Source: a bacterium
GTDB taxonomy: Bacteria > Patescibacteriota > Minisyncoccia > Phycocordibacterales > UBA5272
Direction: 5' to 3'
DNA length: 64,000 bases
Assembly (NCBI GenBank): GCA_023267535.1
Contig: JAHFNC010000004.1
Span: forward strand, 3,757 to 67,756
Made by a program: the position numbers and the translations under genes. Shown here one piece after another: positions 602 to 17,765 of this stretch. The first letter of the stretch is position 1. Every line of letters begins with the position of its first letter. Under the pieces are notes generated by a model. The model made no database searches and was not told where the DNA came from. It saw only the letters and a program-made list of their open reading frames with translations.

Positions 602-895
602 TTAACTTAAAGAAAAATAGAAAGTAGTGACTATTATTATTTGAATAAAAATCATCGTAAAAAGTCTCTTAAGACCCGCAAGCGATGAAAAAGAAAGACA
701 TTGGAATATGCTTTTTACTTTAGGGTTAAATAAATATATTGCCAAAGATAAAAAATAAATTATTGCTGCCATCACCGTGACCACCAGAAGATTCGGACCC
801 TCAGGGTCATTGAAAAAGAAGAACATTACTCTAGAGCAGACGAGAGCTGTTATACCTAAAATAATTAATGAAATCTTTTTTGATTTGTAATACAT
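602..895 (-). CDS. small hypothetical membrane protein
   Basis: 97 aa, three hydrophobic helices; no motif recognised. Confidence 0.3.
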   Translation of the reverse strand: MYYKSKKISLIILGITALVCSRVMFFFFNDPEGPNLLVVTVMAAIIYFLSLAIYLFNPKVKSIFQCLSFSSLAGLKRLFTMIFIQIIIVTTFYFSLS

Positions 896-936
896 ATTGT
901 AATTATACTAGAAAATTTACCAACATTGTTTTCTAA

Positions 937-1176
937 ATACCACACTTTTTAAAGAAAAACGGTGCCTGTCCCCAATTCCAAATAGGTGTTTTAGGGATTA
1001 AGGATAGCACTAGTGTTGGAGATGTAGATATACGAAATTACGCGAAGTATATTTTGAGAGATGGGAAAGATATAGAAAAAAGAGAGTTGCTAGGATGTCT
1101 AAAAAGTAAAATTTTGCTATCAGATAAAAAGATCTACATAAGCGAAATTGAGTTAGTCCCAGTTAATCAAAAGTGA
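937..1176 (+). pseudogene. start-less 80-codon ORF immediately upstream of hsdM (possible gene remnant or non-ATG start)
   Basis: Open frame from the stop at 934-936 to TGA at 1174-1176 with no in-frame ATG or GTG; only an internal TTG; ends 7 nt before hsdM. Confidence 0.2.
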
Positions 1177-1183
1177 TATAATT

Positions 1184-2650
1184 ATGAGTAAATTTATGTT
1201 TGAACAAACTTTTAAGAATATAGACGACATCTTACATAAAGATGCAGGATGCGGAAGTGAGCTTGATTATGTTGAACAAACCTCATGGGTACTATTTTTG
1301 AAGTACCTCGATGATTTAGAGAAAGACAAGAAAACAGCGGCTGAACTTGCAGGAAAAAAGTACACCAACATCATATCTACTGAATACAGTTGGACTACGT
1401 GGGCTACACCAAAAGGTAAAGACGGAAAACTTGATCATCATAAAGCCTTAACTGGAGATGATTTAAAAGACTTTGTTGATCTTAAACTTTTTCCTTATCT
1501 TAAGAAATTTAAAACCACAGCTTTAAGTCCAGATACTATTGAATACAAGATTGGTGAGATTTTTTCTGAATTAAAAAATAGAATTCATAGTGGATATAAC
1601 TTACGTGAAGTTATTAATCGTATAGACGAGCTTCGTTTTCGTACTCATGCAGAAAAGCATGAAATGAGCCACTTGTATGAATCTAAAATACAGAACATGG
1701 GGAATGCTGGTCGTAATGGTGGTGAGTACTATACTCCAAGACCACTTATTACTACTATTGTTAAAGTGGTAGCTCCAAAAATTGGAGACACTATTTATGA
1801 TGGTGCAGTAGGTAGTGCAGGATTCTTATGTGAAGCTTTTGATTACCTAAAGAAGAGTAAAAACCTTACAACGAAAGATGTAGAAATTTTACAAAAGAAA
1901 ACTTTTTATGGAAAGGAAAAGAAATCATTAGCATATATTATCGGTACAATGAATATGATTTTACACGGTGTAGAAGCTCCTAATATTATCCATACCAACA
2001 CTCTTGCTGAAAATCTTGCAGATATACAAGAAAAAGATCGTTATAATGTTGTGTTGGCAAACCCACCATTTGGAGGAAAAGAACGAGTAGAGGTACAGCA
2101 GAACTTTCCAATTAAAACAGGAGAAACTGCTTCTCTTTTCTTACAACACTTTATTAAGATATTAAAAGCAGGAGGTAAAGGCGGTGTGGTTATAAAAAAT
2201 ACATTTCTTAGTAATACAGATAACGCTACGGTTAGTTTAAGAAAGTTACTTCTTGAGAATTGTAACCTACATACAGTATTAGACTTACCTGCTGGAACTT
2301 TTACAGGTGCCGGTGTCAAAACAGTCGTACTCTTTTTTGAAAAAGGGTCCTCTACGAAAAAAGTATGGTTCTATCAACTTAACTTAGACAGAAATCTCGG
2401 TAAAACAAATTCACTTAGCGAGAAAGATTTAGAAGATTTTATTAAACTTCAAAAGAATAAAGCAGAAAGTGAAAACTCTTGGAGTATAGATATAAAAAAC
2501 ATAGACCAAAAGACTTTTGATTTAAGTGCAAAGAACCCTAACAAAAAAGAAGAGGTTGCTTTGCGTTCCCCAGAAGAGATTTTGAAAGAGATGAAAGCTT
2601 TAGATAAGGAGAGTGAAAAGATATTAAGCGGTATTATTAAATTGATATGA
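1184..2650 (+). CDS. hsdM: Type I restriction-modification system, DNA methyltransferase subunit M
   Basis: 488 aa; N6-adenine MTase motif IV NPPFGG, motif I-like GSAGFL; HsdM-type N-terminal domain; first gene of M-X-S-R operon. Confidence 0.9.
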   Translation: MSKFMFEQTFKNIDDILHKDAGCGSELDYVEQTSWVLFLKYLDDLEKDKKTAAELAGKKYTNIISTEYSWTTWATPKGKDGKLDHHKALTGDDLKDFVDLKLFPYLKKFKTTALSPDTIEYKIGEIFSELKNRIHSGYNLREVINRIDELRFRTHAEKHEMSHLYESKIQNMGNAGRNGGEYYTPRPLITTIVKVVAPKIGDTIYDGAVGSAGFLCEAFDYLKKSKNLTTKDVEILQKKTFYGKEKKSLAYIIGTMNMILHGVEAPNIIHTNTLAENLADIQEKDRYNVVLANPPFGGKERVEVQQNFPIKTGETASLFLQHFIKILKAGGKGGVVIKNTFLSNTDNATVSLRKLLLENCNLHTVLDLPAGTFTGAGVKTVVLFFEKGSSTKKVWFYQLNLDRNLGKTNSLSEKDLEDFIKLQKNKAESENSWSIDIKNIDQKTFDLSAKNPNKKEEVALRSPEEILKEMKALDKESEKILSGIIKLI

Positions 2651-3714
2651 ATGAAAAAAAAGAAGTAAAACATATTTTTATAGATTCGAATATTTTTTTA
2701 GATTTTTATAGATTAGGGAAAGAAGATTTAGAGAAACTTAATCAGTTGATTGACTTTGTTAAAAATGGTGATATTAAAATATATTTAACAAAACAGGTCT
2801 ACGATGAATTTTACAGACACAGAGAAGACACCTTTCAAAAAACATACAAAGGTTTTTTAGACTCAAAAACTGATATTCAGATGAATTCTATTTTTAAGAA
2901 TTATCCAGAATATAAAAAGATTACTCTTTTGAAAAAAGCTTTAGAGAAACTTAAGTCTGACTTAGGTCAAAAAGTAGAAAGTGACATGAGTTCAAAAAGT
3001 TTAATTGCGGATGAGGTTGTGAGAAAAATATTTGAAGCCTCTTTTTATATTGATTCGGATAAGTTTTTAGAAATGGCGATTATAAGACACAGACTTGGAA
3101 ATCCACCAGGTAAAAAAAATACTAGTTATGGAGATGAAATCAACTGGGAAACATTACTAAGTGTGGTTCCTGACGGAGAAAAACTAATAATAGTTAGTAA
3201 CGATGGAGATTACGAAAGTCCAATGTCAGAAAGAAAAATCAACGGCTATTTGGAAGCTGAATGGGATAAAAAAAAGAAATCAAAAATCTATTTATACAAG
3301 TCCCTAAGTTCATTTTTTAGAGAACACAACATTGCTATTGAGTTTGAAATTGAACAAGATAAAAGTTTACTTGTAGAAAATTTGATAAACAGTGGTAGTT
3401 TTATGGTAACTCACGAAGTTATAAGAAGGCTTTCAAAGTATAATTCATTTTCAGACGACCAAATAAAAGGTCTTGCTACAGCTTTACTAGGTAACTCGCA
3501 AGTACGGTCAATTATAGAAGATGATGATGTTAGAACTTTTTATAAAATAAACTTACTGTCTAGGTCTGATATTTTTGACGATGAAATGTGGAGTGAGATA
3601 GAGTCTCTTATTATAGTTAACCCAGTTCAGGTTAATAAAGATATTGAGGATATTATTAAAAGTCTTGATGATAAAATTGATGAAGATATCAATGTGGACG
3701 ACATTCCATTTTAA
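2647..3714 (+). CDS. Hypothetical protein with N-terminal PIN-like nuclease fold, embedded in type I RM operon
   Basis: 355 aa; start ATG overlaps hsdM stop (ATGA, 2647-2650); ends 3 nt before hsdS; N-terminal IFIDSNIFLDFY (PIN strand-1 Asp) and later IIVSNDGDY (PIN C-terminal acidic motif); acidic C-terminal tail. Confidence 0.6.
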   Translation: MNEKKEVKHIFIDSNIFLDFYRLGKEDLEKLNQLIDFVKNGDIKIYLTKQVYDEFYRHREDTFQKTYKGFLDSKTDIQMNSIFKNYPEYKKITLLKKALEKLKSDLGQKVESDMSSKSLIADEVVRKIFEASFYIDSDKFLEMAIIRHRLGNPPGKKNTSYGDEINWETLLSVVPDGEKLIIVSNDGDYESPMSERKINGYLEAEWDKKKKSKIYLYKSLSSFFREHNIAIEFEIEQDKSLLVENLINSGSFMVTHEVIRRLSKYNSFSDDQIKGLATALLGNSQVRSIIEDDDVRTFYKINLLSRSDIFDDEMWSEIESLIIVNPVQVNKDIEDIIKSLDDKIDEDINVDDIPF

Positions 3715-3717
3715 TTT

Positions 3718-4839
3718 ATGAAAAAAGAAAACTGGGAAATAAAAAGTTTTGAAGAATGTCTTGAAAAAGTTGTTTATACAAACAAAATTCAAAGAAAAGA
3801 TTTTCTTGATAATGGAAAGCATCCAGTAATTTCACAAGAGAAAGATTTTGTTAATGGGTACTGGGATAATTCTAAAGATTTATTTAAGGTTAGAAAACCA
3901 GTTATAATTTTTGGTGATCATACACAAGTCTTAAAATATGTAGATTTTGATTTTGTTCTTGGTGCTGATGGTGTAAAAATACTTCAGCCTACAAGTGAGC
4001 TAGAACCAAGATTTTTTTACTATTATTTACAAAACATAAATATTGGTAGTTTAGGATACGCAAGACATTACAGATTATTAAAAGAGAGTGAAGTAGAATT
4101 TCCAAAGTCTCTTTTAGAACAGCAACGCATAGTGTCAGTTTTAGATAAAGCATTCGTTGATATATCTAAAGCAAAAGATATTGCTGAACAGAATCTTAAA
4201 AATGCAAAAGAACTTTTTGAAAGTTATTTACAGAGTATGTTTACAAATAAAGGAGATGATTGGGAAGAGAAAACATTAGGCGGTATTGCTTTTGTAAAAA
4301 GTGGAGGAACTCCTTCAAGGTCTAAAAAAGAATACTGGACAGGTAAAATAGCTTGGTATTCGTCGGGTGAATTAAATAATTTGTACACCACAACGCCAGA
4401 AAGATATATTAACGATTTAGCAATTAGTAACTCAAATGCAAAAATCTTTCCAAAAGGTTCTCTTTTAATAGGTATGTATGATACTGCGGCTCTAAAAATG
4501 TCTATATTAGACAGAGACGGTTCTTTTAATCAAGCTATTGCAGGTGTAAAACCTAATGACAAAATTGACTTAACTTTTATTTTACACTCTATCAACTCTA
4601 TCAAACCAGAATTACTTAATTTAAGACGTGGTGTTCGTCAGAAAAATCTAAGTCTTGAAAAGATAAAAAGTATCCCTACCTATGTTCCTCCACTTCAAGT
4701 ACAGAAGAATGTTGTTTCTAAATTAGGAGAACTTTCCACTGAAACAAAAAAACTTGAAGCAATCTATGAACAAAAATTAAATGACTTAGAAGAACTTAAG
4801 AAAAGTATTCTTCAAAAGGTATTTAACGGCGAACTATAA
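3718..4839 (+). CDS. hsdS: Type I restriction-modification system, specificity subunit S
   Basis: 373 aa; two target-recognition-domain repeats with conserved central and C-terminal coiled-coil spacer regions typical of HsdS. Confidence 0.85.
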   Translation: MKKENWEIKSFEECLEKVVYTNKIQRKDFLDNGKHPVISQEKDFVNGYWDNSKDLFKVRKPVIIFGDHTQVLKYVDFDFVLGADGVKILQPTSELEPRFFYYYLQNINIGSLGYARHYRLLKESEVEFPKSLLEQQRIVSVLDKAFVDISKAKDIAEQNLKNAKELFESYLQSMFTNKGDDWEEKTLGGIAFVKSGGTPSRSKKEYWTGKIAWYSSGELNNLYTTTPERYINDLAISNSNAKIFPKGSLLIGMYDTAALKMSILDRDGSFNQAIAGVKPNDKIDLTFILHSINSIKPELLNLRRGVRQKNLSLEKIKSIPTYVPPLQVQKNVVSKLGELSTETKKLEAIYEQKLNDLEELKKSILQKVFNGEL

Positions 4840-4860
4840 AAGTGCTATAATGTCAAGATT

Positions 4861-7182
4861 ATGAACGAATCTGAAACAAGGGCAGAGCTAATTGATCCAA
4901 AGCTAAAAGCTTGTGGTTGGGGTGTTGTTGAAGGATCTAAAATACTCCGTGAATACAATATTACTGCTGGTAAAATCCAAACTGGAGGTATAAGAGGAAA
5001 GCTACTTACTGCTGATTATGTATTGGTCTACAAAGGCATAAAATTGGCTGTGGTTGAGGCAAAGAGTGCAAATATAGGAGTTGGTGAGGGTGTTGCACAA
5101 GCCAAGCAATATGCAGAGAAACTAAAAATAGAAACAACCTATTCTACAAACGGAAAAGAGATATACAGTATCTGTATGAAAACTGGTGTTGAGGGTTTGG
5201 TTTCTGGTTATCTCTCACCTGATGAACTTTGGAACAAAACTTTTTCGGTTCAAAATGAATGGAGAGAGAAATTTAGTTCTATTCCTTTTGAAGATAAGAG
5301 TGGCTCTTGGCAATTACGTTATTATCAAGAAATAGCAGTAAAGAATGTTCTTGAATATGTTGCAAATGATAGGGACCGCATTTTGCTCACCTTAGCTACT
5401 GGTACAGGTAAAACAGCTATCGCTTTTCAGATAGTATGGAAACTATTTCAGACAAGATGGAATTTAAAACGTGACGGTTCTCGTCGTCCTCGTATTTTAT
5501 TTTTAGCAGATAGAAACATATTAGCCGACCAAGCATACAACTCTTTTTCTTCATTTCCAGAAGATGCTTTGGTGCGTATTAATCCTAAAGAAATAAGTAA
5601 GAAAGGAAGTGTGCCTACTAATGGGTCTATTTTCTTTACTATCTTTCAAACCTTTATGAGTGGTAAAGATGCCGAGGGAAACCCTGCACCATACTTCGGA
5701 GAATATCCATCTGATTACTTTGATTTTATTATTATAGACGAATGTCATCGTGGCGGTGCAAACGATGAAGGAAACTGGAGAGGTATCTTGGAATATTTTT
5801 CTCCTGCTGTGCAATTAGGTTTAACAGCTACCCCAAAGCGTAAAGATAATGTCGATACATATAAATATTTTGGTGAGCCAGTATATATTTATTCTCTTAA
5901 AGAGGGTATTAATGATGGATTTCTTACACCTTTTAAGGTTAAGCGTATTAAGACAACATTAGACGATTATATTTATACAAGTGATGACCAAATCATCGAA
6001 GGGGAAATCGAGGAAGGAAAACTTTATACCGAACCTGATTTTAATAAGATAATTGAAATTAAAGCGAGAGAAGAAAAGCGTGTGAAGGTATTTATGGACG
6101 AAGCAAATCAAAATGAAAAAGCTATTGTCTTTTGTGCTACTCAAGATCATGCGGCTGCGGTTCGTGATTTAATTAATCAATACAAGAAAAGTGCTGATCC
6201 AAATTATTGTGTCCGTGTTACAGCAAATGATGGAGAGATAGGCGAACAATTTTTAAGAGAATTCCAAGATAACGAAAAAACTATACCAACTATTTTAACG
6301 ACATCACAGAAACTTTCAACTGGAGTAGATGCTAGAAATATACGTAACATTGTACTCATGCGACCAGTGAACTCTATGATTGAATTTAAGCAAATTGTAG
6401 GGCGTGGTACACGTTTATTTGATGGTAAGGAATTCTTTACTATTTATGACTTTGTGGATGCTTATCACCATTTTGCGGATCCTGAATGGGATGGAGAACC
6501 GATCAGTCCAGTAGATGATGAACCTACGGAACCTAAACCACCAAAAGGGGTAGAGGGTGAACCACCTTTTCCTCCAGAACCACCAACAGAACCAAATAAG
6601 AAACTTAAGATTAAATTACGAGATGGAAAAGAACGTGAAATACAACACATGATAGCAACTTCTTTTTGGGGTGCAGACGGTAAACCTATTTCTGTGGAAG
6701 AGTTTTTACAAAACCTGTTTGGGACACTGCCTAGTCTTTTTAAGGGTGAAGAAGAGTTGCGAGAGATATGGAGTAATCCAATAACAAGAAAAAGTTTGTT
6801 AGAAAAACTAGACGAGGCTGGGTATGGAAAAGACGAACTAACTACATTACAGAAATTAATTGACGCTGAAAATAGTGATCTTTTTGATGTGTTGGAATAT
6901 GTATTTAATAGTGACGTTAAACCGATACCAAGAGAGATAAGAGTAGAAACATCACAGGAAACTATTTTTGAATCCCTTAATGATAAACAAAAAGAATTTA
7001 TTGAATTTGTGTTGAGTAAATATATTGAAACAGGTGTAGAAGAATTAGACCAAGAGAAACTACCAATACTTCTTACTAATAAATATCAGTCGCTAGAAGA
7101 TGCAAAAGATACACTAGGTGATATTGATTTGATTCGTTCGATTTTCTTCAAATTCCAAGAGAAACTATACGCAAAAGTATAA
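4861..7182 (+). CDS. hsdR: Type I restriction enzyme, endonuclease/helicase subunit R (compact form)
   Basis: 773 aa; canonical HsdR N-terminus MNESETRAELIDPKLKACGWG; PD-(D/E)xK-like ADYVLV..VVEAKS; SF2 motif I ATGTGKT, motif II IIIDECHRG; Pro-rich linker then C-terminal helical domain. Confidence 0.9.
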   Translation: MNESETRAELIDPKLKACGWGVVEGSKILREYNITAGKIQTGGIRGKLLTADYVLVYKGIKLAVVEAKSANIGVGEGVAQAKQYAEKLKIETTYSTNGKEIYSICMKTGVEGLVSGYLSPDELWNKTFSVQNEWREKFSSIPFEDKSGSWQLRYYQEIAVKNVLEYVANDRDRILLTLATGTGKTAIAFQIVWKLFQTRWNLKRDGSRRPRILFLADRNILADQAYNSFSSFPEDALVRINPKEISKKGSVPTNGSIFFTIFQTFMSGKDAEGNPAPYFGEYPSDYFDFIIIDECHRGGANDEGNWRGILEYFSPAVQLGLTATPKRKDNVDTYKYFGEPVYIYSLKEGINDGFLTPFKVKRIKTTLDDYIYTSDDQIIEGEIEEGKLYTEPDFNKIIEIKAREEKRVKVFMDEANQNEKAIVFCATQDHAAAVRDLINQYKKSADPNYCVRVTANDGEIGEQFLREFQDNEKTIPTILTTSQKLSTGVDARNIRNIVLMRPVNSMIEFKQIVGRGTRLFDGKEFFTIYDFVDAYHHFADPEWDGEPISPVDDEPTEPKPPKGVEGEPPFPPEPPTEPNKKLKIKLRDGKEREIQHMIATSFWGADGKPISVEEFLQNLFGTLPSLFKGEEELREIWSNPITRKSLLEKLDEAGYGKDELTTLQKLIDAENSDLFDVLEYVFNSDVKPIPREIRVETSQETIFESLNDKQKEFIEFVLSKYIETGVEELDQEKLPILLTNKYQSLEDAKDTLGDIDLIRSIFFKFQEKLYAKV

Positions 7183-7200
7183 TTTTTCTTACTCAAAAAG

Positions 7201-9744
7201 TTAGATCATTCTTTTCTTTATGTTTCGTACAAGATCAGTGATTTCTTTCTTTGCAATATCAGGGATTTTAAATATAGAAACATCAGTTTTTAATAACCAT
7301 TCGGCACATTCCTTTCTATCATAATCCATACTTTCAATGTGGTTAGAAATTTCAATGGCTGTATGTCTACTTAGTCCGAGATTGATAAGAGAAACTTGGG
7401 TCCTTTCAAATACCCCAAACTCGAGCCACATATTTAAATCAGGGACGGAATCAAGAAACTCAGGGTGATTCATACTAAGATAATACTTTAAAATATCAAT
7501 ATAACATGAAGAATACTTTGCAAATTTAAACCTAACATATTCTTCTATATCCCCCATTGTGTTTCTGATAATTAGTGAAAGCTTTTTCTTGGGATCTCTA
7601 TTCTCCCAGTACCTAATATTAGACTTTATTATTCTAGCAAGTGGATATCCTCTCATCCAATTAGTTACTAGAATGGTGTAGTAAGGTGCGAGCGCTTCGT
7701 GGTCCCCAGAAAGAATTCTACTTATTCTTTTTATAATTGCTATGTAGCAATTAGACGCATCTAAATCGTCAGGTAAAACAGGAATTAGGTTTTTTATGTC
7801 ATCATCATAATTTACAAAATAATCAAAGAGTTTTTGTTGAGATATGGGGTTTATACCGGGATTTCTAAAAATTATATCATCTGGTATTTGAAGTGACTCT
7901 TTTACTTTTGAACACTCTACCTCAAGTTCATTAATGAAATCTTCGTCAAGAGGTTCATTTTTTAAGGAAGAGTTTTTAAGGAATTTTGTGAAATAATAAC
8001 TAAAAGCATATTCATGGTTAGAGCTAGAAGTTTCTTTAAAGTTACCTCTTATGTATTCAAGAAGATCAGTTTTATTTTCTGAAGCTTCAGTGATTGCTCT
8101 CTTAATAAAGTGCTTTGTTTTTTCTCTGATAGGTATATTATCCCAATCTTCAGGATCAATACATATAATATTTCCTTGAAATTCCTTTTTTAGGCGACCA
8201 GCTCGACCAGCGAGATTCCAAAAATCAGCTCCTGACATCGGTACTTTATTTCCTCTTTTTGGTTTTCTTATAAAAATTGATTTTGCTGGAAGGTTAACTC
8301 CTTCGAGAAGGGTTGAAGTACATACTAAGTATTTAATATGACCCTCAGAATATAATCTTTCAATTTCTTTTCTAATAACAAGTGGCATGTTGCCGTAATG
8401 AAAAGCAATCTTTCTTTCTAGAACTTTAGCTAAAGCATATTCTGGATGAATTAATTTCTTTATTAAATCAATCAATTCATTTATTTGATCATCTTCTGTT
8501 TCCTCTTTAGTTCCGACAAGATCAAAAAGTTTTTCTGAAGCATCTTCAGCATCTGCTTGTCCATTTACATATATCATGTTGCCACCTTCATTTGAACCAA
8601 GTAAGTAGCAAAAAGTAGACAGTTTTTCTTTTTCGTTTAAAGTTTGATTTAAGTTAATTTGCCCCAGTGGAGTAGATATATTTTTTAGACATAGGTTTAC
8701 GCTCCACTGCTTAGGGTGCCCCACTAATTGTGATACCCAAATTAAATTTTGATTTACGGCAATATATTCAGTAACTATAGTAGACCTATCTTCCTGGTTA
8801 CCTAAGCCATCCAGTAGAACCCCAGGGTTTTGAGAGAATGGACTACAGAATAGTATTTTTATGGCTGGTAGTCGAGTTGTAAGCTCTTCAATTTTTTGTT
8901 GTAAAAGAATACCTCTACCACCATCTCCAATTTTTTGAGCTTCGTCAATGACAAGAAAATCAATCTTAAAAGTGGGATTGTCACTTAGAAACCAATGTAA
9001 TCTTTCTTGCGTAAATATAAATAGAGATGGTTTGTTTAAGTCCATTTCATCAGGTGACTGAGGTACAGAACTTAGGTAAACAGAATAGTCTTCCTTATTA
9101 AACAATTGATCAGAAAAATCTTGCTCTACTTGATTGATAAGTGCTCTGGTAGGGACTATGTAGACAATATTTTTTGGATTCTTTTTGTCGTTTAGTTGCT
9201 CTAAAACAAAAGTATTTAGAATAAATGATTTTCCAGAAGAGGTTGGAGCAGAAGCACTTAAATAGTTTGAACTGTATGCTTTATCGTAAAAGTCTTTTTG
9301 AAATTTATTAAGATATATTGGCTCTTCATTTGTTTTTGTAAAAATGATATGTTCCACATCTCTTCTTGCATTTTCAATTTTAAAAGGTAACGGTATATCA
9401 TTATCGTAATCTGAAGGTAGATATTTCTTATGGATAGCAAGATTAATAGCTGGTTTGTTTGTTAACTTATGCAAAATGATAGATGCTCCAATTCTTTGGT
9501 TCTTCTTTGTTTCTGCATCTGTTAAACAACACTGGGCAATCCTTAATGCTGCATCTTGACAATCTGGGTTATCTGAATGTGATATTATACTTGCACACAT
9601 TAATAAATGATCCCAGTTTGGTATGTAAAATAAGTCAGATTGTTGATTTAAAATTGGGAAAAGTTTTATTACCGAATTTCTAATAATAGATAATAGGTCT
9701 TGTTGAAAGCTTTTTAAGTTATAAACTTTTTCAGGAAGGGTCAT
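7201..9744 (-). CDS. Ski2-like SF2 DEAD/DEAH-box helicase, Hachiman HamB-like candidate
   Basis: 847 aa; Walker A APTSSGKS, motif II VIDEAQ, motif V LLEGVNLPA, motif VI WNLAGRAGR; 14-nt overlap with upstream nuclease-like gene. Confidence 0.75.
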   Translation of the reverse strand: MTLPEKVYNLKSFQQDLLSIIRNSVIKLFPILNQQSDLFYIPNWDHLLMCASIISHSDNPDCQDAALRIAQCCLTDAETKKNQRIGASIILHKLTNKPAINLAIHKKYLPSDYDNDIPLPFKIENARRDVEHIIFTKTNEEPIYLNKFQKDFYDKAYSSNYLSASAPTSSGKSFILNTFVLEQLNDKKNPKNIVYIVPTRALINQVEQDFSDQLFNKEDYSVYLSSVPQSPDEMDLNKPSLFIFTQERLHWFLSDNPTFKIDFLVIDEAQKIGDGGRGILLQQKIEELTTRLPAIKILFCSPFSQNPGVLLDGLGNQEDRSTIVTEYIAVNQNLIWVSQLVGHPKQWSVNLCLKNISTPLGQINLNQTLNEKEKLSTFCYLLGSNEGGNMIYVNGQADAEDASEKLFDLVGTKEETEDDQINELIDLIKKLIHPEYALAKVLERKIAFHYGNMPLVIRKEIERLYSEGHIKYLVCTSTLLEGVNLPAKSIFIRKPKRGNKVPMSGADFWNLAGRAGRLKKEFQGNIICIDPEDWDNIPIREKTKHFIKRAITEASENKTDLLEYIRGNFKETSSSNHEYAFSYYFTKFLKNSSLKNEPLDEDFINELEVECSKVKESLQIPDDIIFRNPGINPISQQKLFDYFVNYDDDIKNLIPVLPDDLDASNCYIAIIKRISRILSGDHEALAPYYTILVTNWMRGYPLARIIKSNIRYWENRDPKKKLSLIIRNTMGDIEEYVRFKFAKYSSCYIDILKYYLSMNHPEFLDSVPDLNMWLEFGVFERTQVSLINLGLSRHTAIEISNHIESMDYDRKECAEWLLKTDVSIFKIPDIAKKEITDLVRNIKKRMI

Positions 9745-10714
9745 AGGTTATCCCAAGTGCCTCCAAGAAGTGCTTTCTAAACTCTTCCACAGAAGGAAAT
9801 GGAAGCAGAAAAACATGTATATCAAAAGTTTCAAGATTTGTATGTTTTGAAATATGTTTGACAACATTTTTTGACCAACCTTCTATTTCTTTGTTAATCT
9901 TTTCTTTTATTTGTTCAGTGGTTTCTGTGTTTGCAACGCTTGGGTATTTATCATAATCAAATCCAATGAGGCACACACCTTTATACCTTACCTGATTATG
10001 GAGAGGGTCGTCTTTGTCCAAATATTTTAATAGAGCAACTTCCAATCTCTCATCTATTACACTCAAGTTGTCCCTCATTAATTGTAAGTCTCTTTCTGCT
10101 GGAGCAGATATTCCTCCATCTGATAAAAGAAACTCTTTAAGACTTATGAAACATTTAGAGATGCCATCGTTTAAATCTTTGTACAGTTTTGATTCACCCC
10201 AATATAAAGATAGAATATCCCTTCCTTCTTCATTTAACTCCACAGAAACATGAATACCATCAGCTCCGTTCACATGGAGTTCTGGGTTTGTTTTTAATGG
10301 CATCTTACATAGTAGTTGGGGAATTTTTAGATACTCCTGAATAAGAATATAGAGAAGCATTTCACCACCTTCACCTGTCTTCTTTAGTGAAGTAAAAAGA
10401 CTTTTTGCTTTTTCAATAAGCTCGTAAGTTTTTGTGGTTGTGTTATGTTTTGTATCATATTCTTTTGCCACCTCATATTCTTTTCTTGGAATTGCATAAT
10501 CAGCTACATGCTTTGCCACAAAACGTGCAAAGTCCTTAGTGCGAGGTCTACCATTTCCGTCTAAAGTTAAAAAGTAACAATGTGAGGTTGCTTTAGTATC
10601 TTTTAAATTAACATTTGATATAACTTCAGTTATATAAGTATTTATTTCTTGTTTGCTTGTTCTCAGAAGATCAGCAATAAGTTCTGCAATATTATCTTGG
10701 TTAGCAGTAGTCAT
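9731..10714 (-). CDS. PD-(D/E)xK nuclease-like protein, Hachiman HamA (DUF1837)-like candidate
   Basis: 327 aa; candidate catalytic residues GADGIHV ... VEL ... LYWGESK (D...E.K arrangement); immediately upstream of and overlapping the SF2 helicase gene in hamA-hamB order. Confidence 0.55.
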   Translation of the reverse strand: MTTANQDNIAELIADLLRTSKQEINTYITEVISNVNLKDTKATSHCYFLTLDGNGRPRTKDFARFVAKHVADYAIPRKEYEVAKEYDTKHNTTTKTYELIEKAKSLFTSLKKTGEGGEMLLYILIQEYLKIPQLLCKMPLKTNPELHVNGADGIHVSVELNEEGRDILSLYWGESKLYKDLNDGISKCFISLKEFLLSDGGISAPAERDLQLMRDNLSVIDERLEVALLKYLDKDDPLHNQVRYKGVCLIGFDYDKYPSVANTETTEQIKEKINKEIEGWSKNVVKHISKHTNLETFDIHVFLLPFPSVEEFRKHFLEALGITYDPS

Positions 10715-10720
10715 ATTTTA

Positions 10721-11200
10721 TTAATTTAAGAATCTACTTATTGGTTCGTTGAGCAGCGATTCAGCAATTTCTATCAGAATATTATCTCTAAAGCTTTGAA
10801 AATCTTTAGCTCCATGGAAGGTGTTGCATCGTATTTGATATATACACTTCATAATATTCGTTACATCCTTTATATCAATAAGTAAAATACCCTCTAAGTT
10901 ATTTTTTGTGGGTCTCATATCCCTAATAGGTGTCTCCTTTTTTAAATCTTCTAATCTTTCTAAATATTTGGGAGAAGACCAGGTTTCTATAAAAATATTT
11001 TTTAGAATATTATCATTATTATAAAACCAGTTTAATTTATGACTGTCTGTGATATTTGCTGCATTACTTCGGAAAGACTCGTCTGTAATGTACGCGTCAA
11101 AAATCATCCAATAAATAATGAATCGAATCCATGCATCAGCTGTATTTTCATCGGCTTTCCTTTTCCATGTTCTAAGTCTTTCTATAAATTCAGGGTCCAT
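10721..11200 (-). CDS. Small HEPN-like protein (R-x4-H motif) upstream of Hachiman-like pair
   Basis: 159 aa; IYQIRCNTFHGAK contains R-x4-HG as in HEPN RNase motifs; all-helical composition; 6 nt upstream of the nuclease-like gene. Confidence 0.45.
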   Translation of the reverse strand: MDPEFIERLRTWKRKADENTADAWIRFIIYWMIFDAYITDESFRSNAANITDSHKLNWFYNNDNILKNIFIETWSSPKYLERLEDLKKETPIRDMRPTKNNLEGILLIDIKDVTNIMKCIYQIRCNTFHGAKDFQSFRDNILIEIAESLLNEPISRFLN

Positions 11201-11261
11201 ATACTCATTTTAGCATAAAACAATAAATCTTTCATTTACGCAAGAGTGATGACTTAAAAAT

Positions 11262-11291
11262 CTAAAAAGCACCCGAAAGGGTGCTTTTTAG
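11262..11291. terminator. Bidirectional rho-independent terminator (ends the tRNA transcript)
   Basis: Hairpin gcaccc-gaaa-gggtgc at 11269-11284 flanked by A-run (5') and T-run (3'). Confidence 0.7.
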
Positions 11292-11382
11292 ATTTGGCTG
11301 GCTACACTCAGTAGCTATGCAGTAACTGTATAGAGCTCTCATACGTTTCGACGCTCTCCGAGCGCCAGAACTGCGCTCGCAT

Positions 11383-11456
11383 TGGCTGGGGTACATGGAC
11401 TCGAACCACGATACTCAGGACCAAAACCTGATGTCCTACCATTAGACGATACCCCA
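11383..11456 (-). tRNA. tRNA-Gln (anticodon UUG), CCA encoded
   Basis: Manual cloverleaf: acceptor TGGGGTA/TACCCCA 7 bp; D-stem GTCT/GGAC; anticodon stem TCAGG/CCTGA with loop TTTTGGT (anticodon TTG at positions 34-36 of the loop); T-stem CGTGG/CCATG with T-loop TTCGAGT; discriminator G then CCA. Confidence 0.85.
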
Positions 11457-11610
11457 AAATTATTTAATTAAATAAGGAATAATATATCATATTTTCACAA
11501 TTTATTCTACTCCTTGTGACTAAATAATATATAAAATTGACGAATATCATTTTATATTGTAGTTTTAAATTATTATCGCACTCAAACATCACAGTAAAGG
11601 GAACCATAAA

Positions 11611-11841
11611 ATGTCTAAAGTGATACCGATAGAAGTTAGCGATGAAGTGTATGCATCGATACAAAAACTCACTAGCAGTGACCCCGAGGGTATGAGATTG
11701 TTGTTTATCCGCGCTTTAGCTCGCGACGAACTCATTCAAAGGATTCTACCAAAACAGTTCTTTTATTTTTACGACAACGACTATCATCCTGTGGATTTTT
11801 CTTTTAATGCTGATAAATATAGAAAAGTCCCCAAGAGATAA
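11611..11841 (+). CDS. Small protein, possible ribbon-helix-helix DNA-binding protein
   Basis: 76 aa; N-terminal MSKVIPIEVSDEVYASIQKL beta-strand/helix pattern resembling RHH (CopG/Arc) fold; AAGGGAA upstream of ATG; followed by terminator. Confidence 0.4.
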   Translation: MSKVIPIEVSDEVYASIQKLTSSDPEGMRLLFIRALARDELIQRILPKQFFYFYDNDYHPVDFSFNADKYRKVPKR

Positions 11842-11847
11842 CAAAAT

Positions 11848-11886
11848 AAATCCACCCTAATTATTCAATGGGTGGATTTTTTATTT
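11848..11886 (+). terminator. Rho-independent terminator
   Basis: aatccaccc ... gggtggatt hairpin followed by TTTTTTATTT. Confidence 0.7.
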
Positions 11887-12011
11887 CAAACATTTTTTAA
11901 GAAAATATCAATATTTACACTTATTAAAAATAAATATAAAATGGCAATCAGTTTGTGTTAACGGGGGATGTTCTTTTATTTTTTTTGAATCAGGAGTGGA
12001 GGGAGATAATA

Positions 12012-13034
12012 ATGAACAAGCAAGCTGTGCTCTCTATTGTTCCAAATATTCCAAACGCTGAAGACGAAGATCCTGGCGTCGCCCTATTAATATCGGCCGA
12101 CCAGCTTCTTTTTGATCCAAATCAACCAAGAAAGAGATACACGAAAAAAGGTCTTGAGAAATTGGCTAAAAGCATTCAAGACCAAGGTTTGCAACAGCCG
12201 GTGGTCGTTACCTTTGCTTATCGTAAGAAAGGCATAGATTACTATTACATCAAGTTCGGCGAAAGGCGTTATCGCGCTCATATTTTGCTTGGCTACAAAA
12301 ACGTTCCTTGTCTTGTGAAGAAGGGGACCTACGACGGCAAGCTTGATGTGGAACGAGTGCTTGCGCAGACTTCGGAAAATAATTTGCGCGAACCACATTC
12401 GCACAGCGAGATGATTAACGTCCTTCGTTTGGTCGTTGAAGACGAACGAGAAAAGTCTGATGGCGTGATTGGCTACATCGGCAAAGCTCAAGAAAGATTT
12501 GCCACAGCTCTTGGCTATACCGCTGAGGCCACCAGAAGGTATCACGTTTTGGCTAATCTTCATTCGGAGTTAGTTGAGATGTTGGATATTGAAGACGAAG
12601 AAGAAGGGGACGAACGAGAAAAGCTTAACTTCAGCGTTGCTCTTTCTTTGGCTAGAGCACCAAAAGATGCTCAGCTTGGGATTCTTGAAAGGTCAAAGCC
12701 TCACTTTGAAAAGTCTCACAATCACGGCATTGCTTTTGTTTCTGAACAAGCAAGGTCTGTTCGCGAGAGTCGTGGTGAAAAGATAGTCGGCAGGAAGCCG
12801 AGCGAATCAATTGACCTTGTCAGGAAATTTCTAACCTTCACCAACAATCGCCACGATTTGGTCTTTGGGCAAATGAAGCCAGCTGAGATAAAAGCCATTT
12901 TGGCTTCGGCGAGCGTGACCACCGTTGATGTTTTGCTTAACGCAGTCATTATGGCCGCAACAAACCTGAAATCACTTCAGGCACTGATTCAAGAAAGGAG
13001 AGATTACAATTATAGAGAATTCAGAAAGAAATAA
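12012..13034 (+). CDS. ParB-like nuclease (ParB/Srx) domain protein
   Basis: About 340 aa from ATG at 12012 (GGAGTGGAGGGAG upstream); ParB N-domain motifs GLQQPVVV and FGERRYRA; local GC about 45-50%, clearly above neighbouring DNA. Confidence 0.7.
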   Translation: MNKQAVLSIVPNIPNAEDEDPGVALLISADQLLFDPNQPRKRYTKKGLEKLAKSIQDQGLQQPVVVTFAYRKKGIDYYYIKFGERRYRAHILLGYKNVPCLVKKGTYDGKLDVERVLAQTSENNLREPHSHSEMINVLRLVVEDEREKSDGVIGYIGKAQERFATALGYTAEATRRYHVLANLHSELVEMLDIEDEEEGDEREKLNFSVALSLARAPKDAQLGILERSKPHFEKSHNHGIAFVSEQARSVRESRGEKIVGRKPSESIDLVRKFLTFTNNRHDLVFGQMKPAEIKAILASASVTTVDVLLNAVIMAATNLKSLQALIQERRDYNYREFRKK

Positions 13035-13041
13035 TTTGTAA

Positions 13042-13076
13042 AAAGCAATCGTGAACACACCGATTGCTTTTTTGTT
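13042..13076 (+). terminator. Rho-independent terminator
   Basis: aagcaatcg-tgaacacac-cgattgctt hairpin followed by TTTTTTG. Confidence 0.7.
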
Positions 13077-13276
13077 TGTAATTTTGTTTTCAAATCTATA
13101 AGTAAAATTATTTGCAACACTAAAATATAAAAAGTCAAAATATTTTGTTTGGAAAACGAAGCTTATATTTCCTTGATTTTGGGTATCAACAATTAACACA
13201 CTTTTTTCACTTGCTCCATACTTGTATCGTGGTTTATACTTTAGTCATTATTATTTTTTAAATCTAAATTATTTTT

Positions 13277-13498
13277 ATGGAGACTCCAACTTTTCAACAC
13301 AACAAAGAAAGACCAGACGGTGATAACGAAAATTTTGAATTACATCTGTCCAAAGATCTTCCTGAATCGTTGAAGGAGTTGAAAAGAATTTCAGATAGAG
13401 TTCTCGAAGGATTATCGTGCAAGGATGCACAAGGAGCTGTCAGACTTTCATCACTAGCAGTATTCAGAAGCCAAATGGGGCTTGGAGAAAAGAGTTAA
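13277..13498 (+). CDS. hypothetical small protein
   Basis: 73 aa ORF, no recognisable motif. Confidence 0.3.
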   Translation: METPTFQHNKERPDGDNENFELHLSKDLPESLKELKRISDRVLEGLSCKDAQGAVRLSSLAVFRSQMGLGEKS

Positions 13499-13571
13499 TA
13501 AGTGAATTGACATTTAACATTTTTTATGAGATAGTGACATCATAAATCCCTTTATTTTTAAGGGCAAAAAG

Positions 13572-16712: not shown

Positions 16713-17765
16713 ATGTTAATGACTTTTTTAATTATTTTGGGAATTATTATCTGTGCGCTTTTGGGAATGATTCTAATGCGTCAGAACGATGCTAAAGACG
16801 TAAAAGAAGATGACCAAACATTTTTAATTCTCCAAGATCAGTTAGAAAAATTACGAAATGCTGTAGAAAACAAATTAGAGCGTTCACAATCAGAGCTGCA
16901 TCAAGTTCTTCATCGTCAGGATTCAGAATCAAAACGTCTCATCACCGAAATCACCAAAGAATTAACCGAAGTGAAAGAAGGGAACAAGCAAGTTTTTTCA
17001 ATGACTGAGCAATTACAAAATCTTGAGAAAATTTTAACCCATCAAAAGCAACGTGGGAATTTAGGCGAAGCATCACTTGAACTTATTCTTTCAAATATGA
17101 TGTCTCCTGGGCAATACGAAATGCAATACAGATTTAAGACCGGTGAAGTTGTAGACGCTGTCATTCATACTAAAGACGGCATCATACCAGTGGATGCTAA
17201 GTATTCACTTGATAATTATCAGAGATTAATGAACGCTACCGACGAAGAAGAGACTGCTTATTATCAAAATGAATTCAAAAAAGATATTCAAAAGCGAATT
17301 GACGAGACTTCAAAATACATAAAGCCAGATGAAGGCACACTACCTTTTGCTTTTATGTTTATTCCAGCTGAGGGAATCTATTATGACCTACTTGTGAATC
17401 AAGTTTCCAAAGGTGCAATCAACACGCAAAATTTAATTGAGTATGCTTATAATAAAAGAAAAGTGATTATTGTTTCGCCGACAACTTTCTACGCATATTT
17501 GCAATCAGTGCTTTTTGGGTTCAAAGCTTTTCAGATTGAAGAGAGCGCCAAAGGTATACAAAAGAAAGTGGAGGACCTAGGAAAGCATTTAGCTGTTTAC
17601 GAAGATTACATGAAGAAGTTAGGTAATACATTAGGAACGACAGTTAATCATTACAATACCGCATACAAAGAATTAAAAAAAGTTGATAAAGATGTACTAA
17701 AAATAACTGGCGAAGAAATCGGATTGGAAGTTTTAACATTGGATAAACCAGACATTGAAGAATAG
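16713..17765 (+). CDS. rmuC: DNA recombination protein RmuC family
   Basis: 350 aa; N-terminal TM then long coiled coil, C-terminal RmuC-type domain. Confidence 0.6.
   Translation: MLMTFLIILGIIICALLGMILMRQNDAKDVKEDDQTFLILQDQLEKLRNAVENKLERSQSELHQVLHRQDSESKRLITEITKELTEVKEGNKQVFSMTEQLQNLEKILTHQKQRGNLGEASLELILSNMMSPGQYEMQYRFKTGEVVDAVIHTKDGIIPVDAKYSLDNYQRLMNATDEEETAYYQNEFKKDIQKRIDETSKYIKPDEGTLPFAFMFIPAEGIYYDLLVNQVSKGAINTQNLIEYAYNKRKVIIVSPTTFYAYLQSVLFGFKAFQIEESAKGIQKKVEDLGKHLAVYEDYMKKLGNTLGTTVNHYNTAYKELKKVDKDVLKITGEEIGLEVLTLDKPDIEE

What the first reader, a model, noticed from the sequence alone, without database searches (positions are those of the whole stretch)
1184..11456. About 10 kb defence island abutting the 3' end of tRNA-Gln
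The type I RM operon (plus strand) and the Hachiman-like cluster (minus strand) are arranged convergently and end 180 bp from the 3' end of a tRNA-Gln(UUG) gene. tRNA 3' ends are preferred integration sites for genomic islands. No integrase is visible in the window, so one could lie before position 1 or have been lost. Beyond the tRNA the gene content switches to a higher-GC ParB module and then core genes.
Basis: inference. Interest (0 to 1): 0.5.

Follow-up and report, generated by a model that had tools for sequence, protein, structure and literature searches.

The report
Decayed defence island beside tRNA-Gln
A type I restriction system and a Hachiman anti-phage system sit in a spot next to a glutamine tRNA gene that holds different defence genes in every related genome, and a leftover scrap of a serine integrase gene suggests they were cargo of a phage-like element that has since decayed; this is an ordinary kind of defence island, in a little-studied bacterial group.

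Summary
hsdM, a PIN gene, hsdS and hsdR (1184-7182, +) converge on hamB, hamA and a small upstream gene (7201-11200, -). That cluster starts 182 bp from the 3' end of tRNA-Gln(UUG) (11383-11456, -).

The genome is a Candidatus Nomurabacteria/Paceibacterota (CPR) bacterium. In 14 related species the right flank (tRNA-Gln, p100, p179, SNase, YqeY, RmuC, RecR) is conserved. The 3-5 kb beyond the tRNA 3' end differs in every genome. It holds a retron XI RT-protease, type II R-M systems, a zeta toxin, an RmrA-like gene, a KAP NTPase or metal-resistance genes.

The window has no repeat of the tRNA 3' end. It does have an integrase trace: 970-1176 is the last ~55-70 codons of a large serine recombinase (LSR). 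Intact LSRs of this family lie about 95-115 bp from a tRNA-Gln 3' end in two provirus contigs. One also abuts the closest HamAB homologues (78% and 72% identity).

Best reading: decayed, immobilised cargo of an LSR-type phage-like element at a tRNA-Gln hotspot. It is a new member of a known kind. The small upstream gene is a HEPN-fold protein.

The parts
602..895 (-). mem97, a small membrane-protein gene. It is the conserved left anchor of the variable region.
   Evidence: Homologues occur in L007, L013 and L022 (54-83% aa). DNA homology between the window and L013 ends at about window 898. In L013 the mem97 start is 575 bp from the tRNA-Gln 3' end.
970..1176 (+). Relic (pseudogene fragment) of the last ~55-70 codons of a large serine recombinase gene. 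It ends 8 nt before hsdM.
   Evidence: 83% aa (54 aa) and 87% nt (144 nt) to L016:891-1178. 57% to L062:2166-2819, which carries Pfam Recombinase + Zn_ribbon_recom. 60% over 52 aa to the intact 440-aa LSR of L091 (E 9e-9). An upstream stop codon, and no resolvase-domain sequence anywhere in the window.
1184..2650 (+). hsdM, the type I R-M methyltransferase.
   Evidence: Pfam N6_Mtase and HsdM_N. PADLOC MTase_I E 4e-160, covering residues 5-486 of 488.
2647..3714 (+). PIN_12-domain gene embedded between hsdM and hsdS, overlapping the hsdM stop.
   Evidence: Pfam PIN_12 E 1e-19. The C-terminal part hits PADLOC candidate PDC-S34. PHROG 9788, of unknown function.
3718..4839 (+). hsdS, the specificity subunit, with two target-recognition domains.
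   Evidence: Pfam Methylase_S, two stretches. PADLOC Specificity_I E 9e-61.
4861..7182 (+). hsdR, the restriction/translocase subunit.
   Evidence: Pfam ResIII, Helicase_C, HSDR_N and EcoEI_R_C. PADLOC REase_I E 1e-125. A 69-nt relic of this gene's 3' end (81% nt) survives in relative L073.
7201..9744 (-). hamB, the Hachiman helicase.
   Evidence: PADLOC HamB1 E 5e-285, residues 3-843 of 847. Closest homologue 72% identical, next to an intact LSR.
9731..10714 (-). hamA, the Hachiman DUF1837 nuclease.
   Evidence: Pfam HamA E 4e-63. PADLOC HamA1 E 4e-121. 78% identical to L091 HamA.
10721..11200 (-). p159, a HEPN-fold protein and the first gene of the p159-hamA-hamB operon.
11258..11295 (-). 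Perfect 17-bp hairpin followed by a U-run: the terminator of the tRNA-Gln transcript.
   Evidence: Inverted repeat I18, 100% complementary. Fold. Conserved in L073 and L075 next to the tRNA, as a second copy in L073, in L021 as a copy displaced from the tRNA, and degraded (58% identity) in L074.
11296..11382 (-). 87-nt structured trailer between the tRNA 3' end and the hairpin.
   Evidence: 86-90% nt identical in L021, L073, L074 and L075, while neighbouring coding DNA is about 73% identical. Fold z-score -4.3 for the 136-nt stretch that includes the terminator hairpin. No Rfam family. Little covariation.
11383..11456 (-). tRNA-Gln(UUG), CCA encoded. It is the right anchor of the variable region.
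   Evidence: ARAGORN and Rfam (58.8 bits). It holds the same syntenic position in 14 related species.

Best explanation
The segment from about 899 to 11257 is an immobilised, mosaic defence island. It lies in a lineage-wide hypervariable hotspot between a conserved chromosomal gene (mem97) and the 3' side of tRNA-Gln(UUG), in a Candidatus Nomurabacteria (CPR/Patescibacteria) genome.

Its two working modules are shown by sequence:
- A type I R-M operon, which methylates self DNA and translocates and cuts unmodified DNA. It has an embedded PIN-domain gene.
- A three-gene Hachiman operon: a HEPN-fold protein, the HamA nuclease and the HamB helicase. In Hachiman the helicase senses damaged or foreign DNA and releases the nuclease.

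How it got there is inferred:
1. A phage-like element using a large serine recombinase (LSR) integrated beside tRNA-Gln. In intact relatives the LSR gene ends about 95-115 bp from the tRNA 3' end, with a terminator hairpin and a spacer in between.
2. Defence cargo accumulated in the interval between the LSR stop codon and that terminator. Hachiman came first or separately. The 6-kb R-M operon sits exactly between the LSR stop and the hamB stop.
3. The element's body and about 85% of the LSR gene were then deleted. What remains is the LSR's 3' relic, the cargo, the trailer and the tRNA.
4. Serine integrases leave only a few shared bases at their junctions, so no tRNA repeat is expected.
For: The hotspot:
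- 14 related species keep the order tRNA-Gln(-), p100, p179, SNase, p234, YqeY, RmuC, p111, RecR.
- Of 91 ORFs beyond the tRNA 3' end in 15 related loci that carry a tRNA-Gln(UUG) upstream of RmuC, only 9 have a homologue in another locus, and none has one in the window.
- Contents at that site: retron XI RT-protease (L014); Dcm + LlaMI (L016); type II REase + MTase, plus metal resistance (L023/L078); zeta toxin (L013); RmrA-like + DUF4411 (L075); KAP NTPase/PDC-S49 (L073); Rep (L028).
- In L013, mem97 lies 575 bp from the tRNA.

The LSR link:
- The relic at 970-1176.
- The same order, LSR then cargo then tRNA-Gln(-), in L078 (near-intact LSR, 7.8 kb of cargo) and L016 (relic, 3.5 kb type II R-M). 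L091/L092 has an intact 440-aa LSR ending 3 nt from the end of hamB, with HamA 78% and HamB 72% identical, and a tRNA-Gln(CUG) with its 3' side facing the cargo.
- An intact LSR directly convergent on a tRNA-Gln in provirus contigs L097 and L101. A more distant LSR abuts the tRNA in L020.
- In L103 the LSR is followed by a type I R-M system.
- The LSR is preceded by ParB-MTase, an HTH gene and a terminase in L078, L093, L095 and L097.

Insertion at the tRNA end in relatives: displaced tRNA 3' fragments in L021, L074, L091, L013, L025 and L036.

Mosaic structure: an hsdR 3' relic in L073 lies next to a different tRNA-proximal cassette.

Background: serine integrases have common cores as small as 3 bp (PMC9262239).
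Against: - No att sites can be defined in the window, and the LSR relic is only about 55-70 codons long.
- Other members of the LSR family are not near tRNA-Gln (L076, L079), so target choice is not uniform.
- The direct repeats of 15-24 nt of the tRNA 3' end in relatives are what tyrosine integrases typically leave, so a second mechanism probably also acts at this site.
- In mycobacteriophages, serine integrases are reported not to use tRNA genes (PMC9262239).
- Island composition is host-like. That gives no independent sign of foreign origin.
- No same-species empty-site allele was recovered.
- The order of events (Hachiman first, R-M later, deletion last) is inference only.
Confidence: 0.68

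Rival explanations
1. This is an integrase-independent 'core defence hotspot'. Cargo is swapped by homologous recombination in conserved flanking sequences: mem97 or the LSR relic on one side, the tRNA and trailer on the other. DNA comes in from related CPR bacteria. The LSR relic is a bystander from an older event.
For: - Island GC and GC3 are indistinguishable from the host.
- L073 keeps an hsdR 3' relic but has a different tRNA-proximal cassette.
- The trailer and hairpin are more conserved (86-100% nt) than coding DNA (about 73%), and are patchily distributed.
- LSR 3' relics with different truncation points persist in the window, L016 and L074.
- Cassettes in L073 and L013 are flanked by 50-120-nt duplications of flanking sequence, not by att cores.
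- Comparable integrase-free hotspots are described in P. aeruginosa and E. coli (PMC10250203, PMC10121019).
Against: - Intact LSRs of the same family sit next to tRNA-Gln and next to the closest HamAB homologues, so integrase-borne delivery is directly plausible.
- The two explanations do not exclude each other. This one may describe turnover after the LSR decayed.
Confidence: 0.2
2. This is a classical tyrosine-integrase tRNA island. The integrase and the distal att repeat lie upstream of the window start.
For: - Relatives show 15-24-nt direct repeats of the tRNA-Gln 3' part. This is the usual signature of tyrosine integrases (PMC9262239).
- Only 2.2 kb left of the window could be read.
Against: - The window and L001 have no repeat of the tRNA 3' end with up to 3-4 mismatches.
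- The 2.2 kb to the left encodes small membrane proteins and a DUF218 protein, with homologues in relatives (L007, L008, L032, L074), and no recombinase.
- Homology to L013 resumes at mem97 (602-895), which places the left boundary inside the window.
Confidence: 0.06
3. The region is ancestral. The R-M and Hachiman genes were present in the common ancestor and were lost or replaced independently in every sampled relative.
For: Host-like composition. An hsdR relic in L073 shows that at least the R-M module is older than one lineage split.
Against: - None of about 17 syntenic relatives has any of the seven genes at this site.
- The closest HamAB homologues (72-78%) are on LSR or phage-like elements in other contexts.
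- An integrase relic lies at the edge of the region.
Confidence: 0.04

Closest known systems
Defence islands and hotspots next to tRNA genes or between conserved core genes (E. coli pan-genome hotspots, PMC10121019; P. aeruginosa core defence hotspots, PMC10250203)
   Same: A fixed chromosomal position bounded by conserved genes or a tRNA. It holds different defence systems in different genomes: R-M, Hachiman, a retron, toxin-antitoxin genes. Integrase genes are often decayed or absent.
   Different: The host is a CPR bacterium with a very small genome. Comparisons here are between species, not strains. The associated recombinase is a large serine recombinase, not a tyrosine integrase.
Defence hotspots inside prophages and satellites, between the integrase and the attachment site (P2/P4 hotspots, PMC9122126)
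   Same: Cargo sits between the integrase gene and the junction with the chromosome. The cargo varies among related elements (none, Hachiman, type I or type II R-M, metal resistance). The LSR is preceded by a terminase and ParB-methylase genes.
   Different: In the window the element's body and most of the integrase are gone. The integrase family and the host phylum also differ. Mobility is not shown.
Genomic island encoding a complete type I R-M system in Patescibacteria MAG nzgw456 (PMC12455944)
   Same: Same phylum and the same kind of cargo. MAGs from the same naming series (nzgw467, nzgw482) are among the syntenic relatives found here.
   Different: That island was predicted by composition and IslandViewer. 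Here the evidence is comparative synteny plus an integrase relic, and a Hachiman system is present as well. Identity with that island was not tested.
Hachiman type I (HamA-HamB; Tuck et al. 2024, PMC12278908)
   Same: Full-length HamA (DUF1837 nuclease) and HamB (helicase) in an overlapping gene pair.
   Different: An extra HEPN-fold gene sits upstream in the same operon. It matches no PADLOC model above a marginal DzbB hit (E 1e-4), and the paper does not mention an accessory gene.
Large serine recombinases of phages and integrative elements (Bxb1, phiC31, CcrAB type)
   Same: Family members have Resolvase + Recombinase + Zn-ribbon domains (440 aa in L091). The gene lies at the end of the element. 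There are no long att repeats.
   Different: Repeated adjacency to tRNA-Gln 3' ends. Serine integrases of mycobacteriophages are reported not to use tRNA genes (PMC9262239). Many CPR copies are split or truncated.

Membership tests
Type I restriction-modification system | HsdM methyltransferase, HsdS specificity subunit and HsdR helicase-nuclease encoded together | tested here: met
   All three are full-length by Pfam and PADLOC. HsdS has two Methylase_S stretches. HsdR has ResIII, Helicase_C and EcoEI_R_C.
Type I restriction-modification system | Methylation-dependent self/non-self discrimination and ATP-driven cleavage | not testable with these tools
   Needs methylome data or biochemistry.
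Hachiman (type I) | Adjacent HamA (DUF1837) and HamB (SF2 helicase) genes | tested here: met
   PADLOC HamA1 E 4e-121 (residues 7-322 of 327). HamB1 E 5e-285 (residues 3-843 of 847). The genes overlap by 14 nt.
Hachiman (type I) | Two-gene system without further components | tested here: not met
   A third gene, p159 (HEPN fold), lies 6 nt upstream of hamA in the same orientation. The closest HamAB homologues instead have a 62-aa HTH_17 gene (L091) or nothing (L093) at that position.
Classical tRNA-integrated genomic island | Intact integrase gene at one end | tested here: not met
   Only a relic of about 55-70 codons of a serine recombinase is present. No recombinase lies in 2.2 kb further left.
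Classical tRNA-integrated genomic island | Direct repeat of the tRNA 3' end at the distal boundary | tested here: not met
   No match with up to 3-4 mismatches in the window or L001, apart from one 4-mismatch match at 44807-44824, about 33 kb away and read as chance. Only a weak 13-nt resemblance (TGTAGCCAGCCAA) at the hairpin end of the trailer.
Classical tRNA-integrated genomic island | Present in some and absent from other related genomes at the same locus | tested here: met
   Absent from all of about 17 syntenic relatives. L013 has 575 bp between mem97 and the tRNA.
Classical tRNA-integrated genomic island | Composition differing from the host genome | tested here: not met
   Island GC is 0.29-0.36 and GC3 0.18-0.28, within the background. 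Tetranucleotide z is at most 2.4.
Large serine recombinase integrative element | Resolvase catalytic domain + Recombinase + Zn-ribbon in one intact gene | tested here: not met
   The window keeps only the C-terminal tail. Intact genes are found in L091 (440 aa), L095-L097 and L101.
Large serine recombinase integrative element | attL/attR with a short (2-3 bp) common core. Excision and integration activity. | not testable with these tools
   The cores are too short to find by sequence. This needs read-level evidence of circular forms, or recombination assays.
Core defence hotspot | Conserved flanking markers with diverse defence systems between them across genomes | tested here: met
   At least 7 different defence or toxin contents at the tRNA-Gln 3' side. 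The right flank is conserved in about 30 loci.
HEPN domain proteins (for p159) | All-alpha HEPN fold with a conserved Rx4-6H motif | tested here: met

The most novel reading that the evidence does not exclude
A family of phage-like elements in CPR bacteria uses a large serine recombinase that targets the 3' flank of tRNA-Gln genes, which is unusual for serine integrases. The short interval between the integrase stop codon and the tRNA trailer acts as a plug-in site for defence cargo. The window would hold a fossil of such an element. Its Hachiman system has also gained a HEPN-fold partner (p159) that elsewhere pairs with a NERD nuclease.
Probability: 0.45. Interest if true: 0.55.

Novelty: new member of a known kind. 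Interest (0 to 1): 0.36.

Why it matters
Defence islands at tRNA hotspots are routine in well-studied bacteria. In CPR/Patescibacteria, with genomes of about 1 Mb and mostly no CRISPR, little is known about how defence genes are gained and lost.

This locus gives a concrete, comparable hotspot across at least 17 species. It also points to a candidate vehicle: a serine-integrase phage-like element next to tRNA-Gln, whose attachment site could be tested.

The finding does not change any general picture. The R-M and Hachiman systems themselves are standard. The HEPN-fold gene in the Hachiman operon and the PIN gene inside the R-M operon are modest leads for new accessory components.

Tried and rejected
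- **Exact 40-nt tRNA 3' end in viral contigs:** no match.
- **Repeat searches for the tRNA 3' end** in the window and in L001: nothing beyond chance.
- **Rfam on the window and, permissively, on 11150-11650:** only the tRNA. The trailer matches no family. Alignment folding of five trailers gave almost no covariation.
- **Family searches:** PHROGs and NCBIfam found nothing for p159, the LSR relic or several relatives' ORFs. Pfam at E up to 1 found nothing for p159.
- **Same-species alleles without the island:** look-ups by exact DUF1801, mem97, p100, ParB and p159 proteins returned only short contigs of the same arrangement. Several of those contigs break at or near the tRNA. That is suggestive of strain variation but is not evidence of it.
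- **ParB-like protein against phage and plasmid records:** only distant matches, at most 37% identity over part of the protein.
- **Promoter and terminator consensus scan:** counts no higher than in shuffled sequence, so it was given no weight.
- **Structure search:** the afdb50 library was unavailable.
- **PIN gene and the 354-aa gene next to a p159 homologue in L084:** I checked whether they are related. They are not.
- **An integron-like cassette array,** suggested by the hairpins and the repeat-flanked cassettes in L073 and L013: set aside. I saw no integron integrase in the ORFs I scanned, and the repeats are copies of local flanking sequence.

Full report
**1. What is in the window**

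One tRNA is present: tRNA-Gln(UUG) at 11383-11456 on the minus strand, with CCA encoded. Its 3' end faces left, towards the cluster.

The cluster has two operons.
- Plus strand: hsdM (1184-2650), a PIN_12-domain gene (2647-3714), hsdS (3718-4839) and hsdR (4861-7182).
- Minus strand: hamB (7201-9744), hamA (9731-10714) and a 159-aa gene, p159 (10721-11200).

All matches are full-length to Pfam and PADLOC models: HsdM 4e-160, HsdS 9e-61, HsdR 1e-125, HamB 5e-285 and HamA 4e-121. The two operons converge with 18 nt between their stop codons. The start of p159 is 182 bp from the tRNA 3' end.

**2. Between the tRNA and the cargo**

The 182 bp hold three things, reading away from the tRNA.
- An 87-nt structured trailer (11296-11382).
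- A perfect 17-bp hairpin with a U-run (11258-11295), which is the tRNA terminator.
- A promoter-like TGn-TAAAAT element upstream of p159. The scan as a whole was no better than shuffled sequence, so this carries no weight.

The trailer matches no Rfam family.

**3. Whose genome it is, and the synteny test**

The RmuC protein (16713-17765) finds 69 loci in species-representative genomes. The close ones (75-88% identity) are Candidatus Nomurabacteria/Paceibacterota MAGs.

Fourteen of them have tRNA-Gln(UUG) on the same strand, 4-6 kb upstream of RmuC. About 30 loci share the order p100, p179, SNase, p234, YqeY, RmuC, p111, RecR.

None has a homologue of hsdM, hsdS, hsdR, the PIN gene, hamA, hamB or p159 at this site. 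None has the ParB module either.

Of 91 ORFs lying beyond the tRNA 3' end in 15 related loci, 9 have a homologue in another locus and none has one in the window.

What occupies the site in relatives:

| Locus | Content beyond the tRNA 3' end |
|---|---|
| L014 | Retron type XI RT-protease plus a SocA/Panacea gene |
| L016 | Dcm + LlaMI-type restriction enzyme |
| L023/L078 | Type II REase (GmrSD_N-HNH) + EcoRI-type methylase, then metal-resistance genes |
| L013 | Zeta toxin |
| L025 | DUF2726 + trypsin-like protease |
| L028 | Rep protein |
| L021, L074 | NYN-domain gene |
| L075 | RmrA-like peptidase + DUF4411 |
| L073 | KAP NTPase (PDC-S49) |

This is the pattern of a defence hotspot.

**4. 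Boundaries**

*Left.* DNA homology to L013, the relative with the most similar RmuC, covers the 5' part of mem97 and stops at about window 898. In L013 the mem97 start is 575 bp from the tRNA 3' end, with only a 112-aa DUF559-like gene between. The window has 10.5 kb there. The 2.2 kb left of the window (L001) encodes small membrane proteins and a DUF218 protein. These have homologues in L007, L008, L032 and L074, and there is no recombinase.

*Right.* The trailer and hairpin are shared at 82-100% (hairpin) and 86-90% (trailer) with L073 and L075, where they also follow the tRNA. They are also shared with L021 and L074, where they are displaced from it.

**5. No att repeat in the window, but clear ones in relatives**

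The last 16-25 nt of the tRNA have no second copy in the window or in L001 with up to 3-4 mismatches. The one 4-mismatch match, at 44807-44824, lies about 33 kb away and reads as chance.

Relatives do carry such copies.
- L021 and L074: the trailer with about 20 nt of the tRNA 3' end attached lies away from the tRNA. In L021 it is 3.9 kb away. The sequences just beyond the breakpoint resemble each other.
- L091: a 1.1-kb HxlR-SnoaL cassette is flanked by a direct repeat of about 24 nt of the tRNA 3' end plus the trailer.
- Further fragments lie 155 nt (L013), 240 nt (L023/L078), 336 nt (L025) and 3.9 kb (L036) downstream of the tRNA. By my estimate, about 0.2 such 3-mismatch matches are expected by chance over all the loci searched.

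Site-specific insertion at this tRNA end is therefore real in this lineage.

**6. The integrase trace**

Window 970-1176, ending 8 nt before hsdM, translates to QFQIGVLGIKDSTSVGDVDIRNYAKYILRDGKDIEKRELLGCLKSKILL... Its matches are:
- 83% identical to a 95-aa ORF in L016, which also lies just upstream of an R-M methylase.
- 56% to a relic in L074.
- 57% to a 217-aa ORF in L062 that carries Pfam Recombinase and Zn_ribbon_recom.
- 60% to the C-terminus of an intact 440-aa large serine recombinase in L091.

The family has more than 2000 members (E ≤ 1e-5). Many are truncated or split: an in-frame stop in L079 and a frameshift in L078. The window has no other piece of this gene.

**7. The same architecture with an intact integrase**

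- L078 is the same species as L023 (99% nt). It reads ParB-methylase, HTH, LSR(+), 7.8 kb of cargo, tRNA-Gln(-), p100, p179, SNase.
- L016 reads LSR relic(+), type II R-M, tRNA-Gln(-).
- The closest HamAB homologues in the database (HamA 78%, HamB 72%) are in L091/L092. There hamB ends 3 nt from the end of an intact LSR of this family. The other end of the cargo faces the 3' side of a tRNA-Gln(CUG).
- The next closest HamAB (66%) lies beside terminase and ParB-methylase genes, with an LSR fragment at the contig edge.
- Among ten provirus contigs with this LSR, two have a tRNA-Gln (CUG in L097, UUG in L101) convergent with the LSR, about 95-115 nt from its stop codon. In L097 the order is LSR stop, terminator hairpin, about 80 nt of spacer, then the tRNA 3' end. 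This is the same layout as hairpin, trailer and tRNA in the window.
- A more distant LSR runs into the tRNA-Gln 3' end in L020.
- L103 has the LSR followed by a type I R-M system.
- Upstream of the LSR these elements carry ParB-methylase, an HTH gene and a large terminase.

In the window, the 6-kb R-M operon (1184-7182) occupies exactly the gap between the LSR stop (1176) and the hamB stop (7201). Those two stops are 3 nt apart in L091.

**8. Interpretation**

*Shown:*
- A complete type I R-M system and a complete HamAB pair.
- A hypervariable, defence-rich site on the 3' side of tRNA-Gln across many species.
- A serine-recombinase relic at the distal edge.
- Intact members of that recombinase family next to tRNA-Gln and next to the nearest HamAB relatives.

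*Inferred:*
- The window's island is the cargo end of an LSR-type phage-like element whose body and most of whose integrase were deleted.
- The trailer and hairpin may be element-derived junction sequence. That would explain why they are more conserved than coding DNA and patchily distributed.
- The R-M operon was added between the LSR and hamB.

L073 keeps a 69-nt relic of this hsdR next to a different tRNA-proximal cassette. So modules turn over independently.

The island's GC and GC3 match the host. This fits either long residence or exchange within the phylum, as reported for Patescibacteria (PMC12455944).

Turnover by homologous recombination without any integrase is the main rival, and it may well act together with the model above. 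The 15-24-nt tRNA repeats in relatives are more typical of tyrosine integrases (PMC9262239). A second insertion mechanism at this site is therefore likely, and it is not identified.

**9. Side findings**

*p159.* It belongs to a rare family (11 clusters) with invariant R124-x4-H129. The predicted structure is confident (pLDDT 92). Its best matches are HEPN toxins, Csm6 HEPN domains and AbiV. Its homologues sit upstream of a NERD-domain gene next to GmrSD, or at the end of a type I R-M operon in a Gracilibacteria MAG.

*The ParB module.* The segment at 11.5-13.5 kb, on the 5' side of the tRNA, has GC3 0.44. It is absent from every relative and has only distant phage or plasmid relatives. It is a separate insertion.

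**10. Verdict**

The island interpretation is right in substance and wrong in some mechanistic details. The kind of feature is well known: defence islands at tRNA or core hotspots, cargo between integrase and att site, and a type I R-M island already reported in Patescibacteria. The score is therefore modest. The possible link between a serine integrase family and tRNA-Gln, and the HEPN partner of Hachiman, are the parts worth following up.

Noticed in passing
window 11457-13560 (p76 11611-11841, ParB-like 11955-13034, p73 13277-13498): A ParB_N-only gene module with GC 0.44 and GC3 0.44 (host about 0.34 and 0.18-0.31) lies on the 5' side of the tRNA. It is absent from all relatives, which have other small genes there. 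There is no ParA and no flanking repeat. Phage and plasmid ParB proteins are only distantly related (at most 37% identity).
   Followed up: partly
window 10721-11200 (-): p159, the first gene of the Hachiman operon, is a HEPN-fold protein with an invariant Rx4H motif. It belongs to a rare 11-cluster family. Elsewhere its homologues pair with a NERD nuclease or follow a type I R-M operon. It may be an accessory or back-up effector.
   Followed up: yes
window 2647-3714 (+): A PIN_12-domain gene is embedded between hsdM and hsdS, overlapping the hsdM stop. The position recalls the PrrC anticodon nuclease inside the EcoprrI operon (from my own knowledge, not tested). Its C-terminal part hits PADLOC candidate PDC-S34.
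   Followed up: no
window 11258-11382; L021:501-636, L073:2424-2542 and 122-189, L074:1313-1431, L075:4138-4267: The 87-nt tRNA-Gln trailer and its hairpin are 86-100% identical across genomes whose coding DNA is about 73% identical. They are missing from the relatives closest by RmuC. The hairpin-proximal end (TGTAGCCAGCCAA) weakly resembles the tRNA 3' end (TGTACCCCAGCCAA). Its function is unknown, and it may be element-derived junction DNA.
   Followed up: partly
L013:~2960-3033, L014:~4040-4110, L021:~4500-4577, L023:3850-3915 (= L078:18714-18779), L036:4991-5066: In five relatives the last ~13 nt of tRNA-Gln form the outer part of a long perfect palindrome. The stem is roughly 20-30 bp and the inner sequence differs in each genome. 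So an inverted copy, GCTGGGGTAC(AAG), lies about 20-45 nt downstream. I found no explanation for this.
   Followed up: partly
L032:4630-4666 and 4752-4787, L024:207-235, L017:146-185, L004:89-122, L020:961-985: Extra copies of the first ~25-35 nt (the 5' part) of tRNA-Gln lie 100-250 nt upstream of the tRNA, or alone, in several relatives. This hints at insertion or deletion events on the 5' side as well. The window has none.
   Followed up: no
L003, L086-L090 (window about 11389-11756 and about 13508): Contigs from four independent assemblies of the same strain end at or within about 300 nt of the tRNA, and one ends at the right edge of the ParB module. This could reflect strain variation at these junctions, or just low coverage.
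   Followed up: partly
L013:1144-1266 and 2330-2444: In L013 the mem97 gene is split by a zeta-toxin cassette, with about 50 nt of mem97 duplicated on both sides. In L073 a 2.2-kb KAP-NTPase cassette is flanked by a 68-nt repeat of the hairpin plus part of the trailer. Both are cassette insertions with duplicated local sequence rather than att cores.
   Followed up: partly
L007, L008, L022: In three relatives the left-flank genes (mem97, DUF218) are inverted relative to the window and lie next to p100. No tRNA-Gln is found within 10 kb, which suggests inversions or deletions with a breakpoint at this locus.
   Followed up: no
L078:9660-10981, L079:9410-10687, L076:10001-11023, L062:2166-2819: Large serine recombinase genes of this family are often broken in CPR genomes: an in-frame stop, a frameshift or an N-terminal truncation. 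They usually sit next to defence or metal-resistance cargo. L079 also carries a SMODS/CD-NTase (CBASS-type) gene and AAA_21 + RloB genes nearby.
   Followed up: partly
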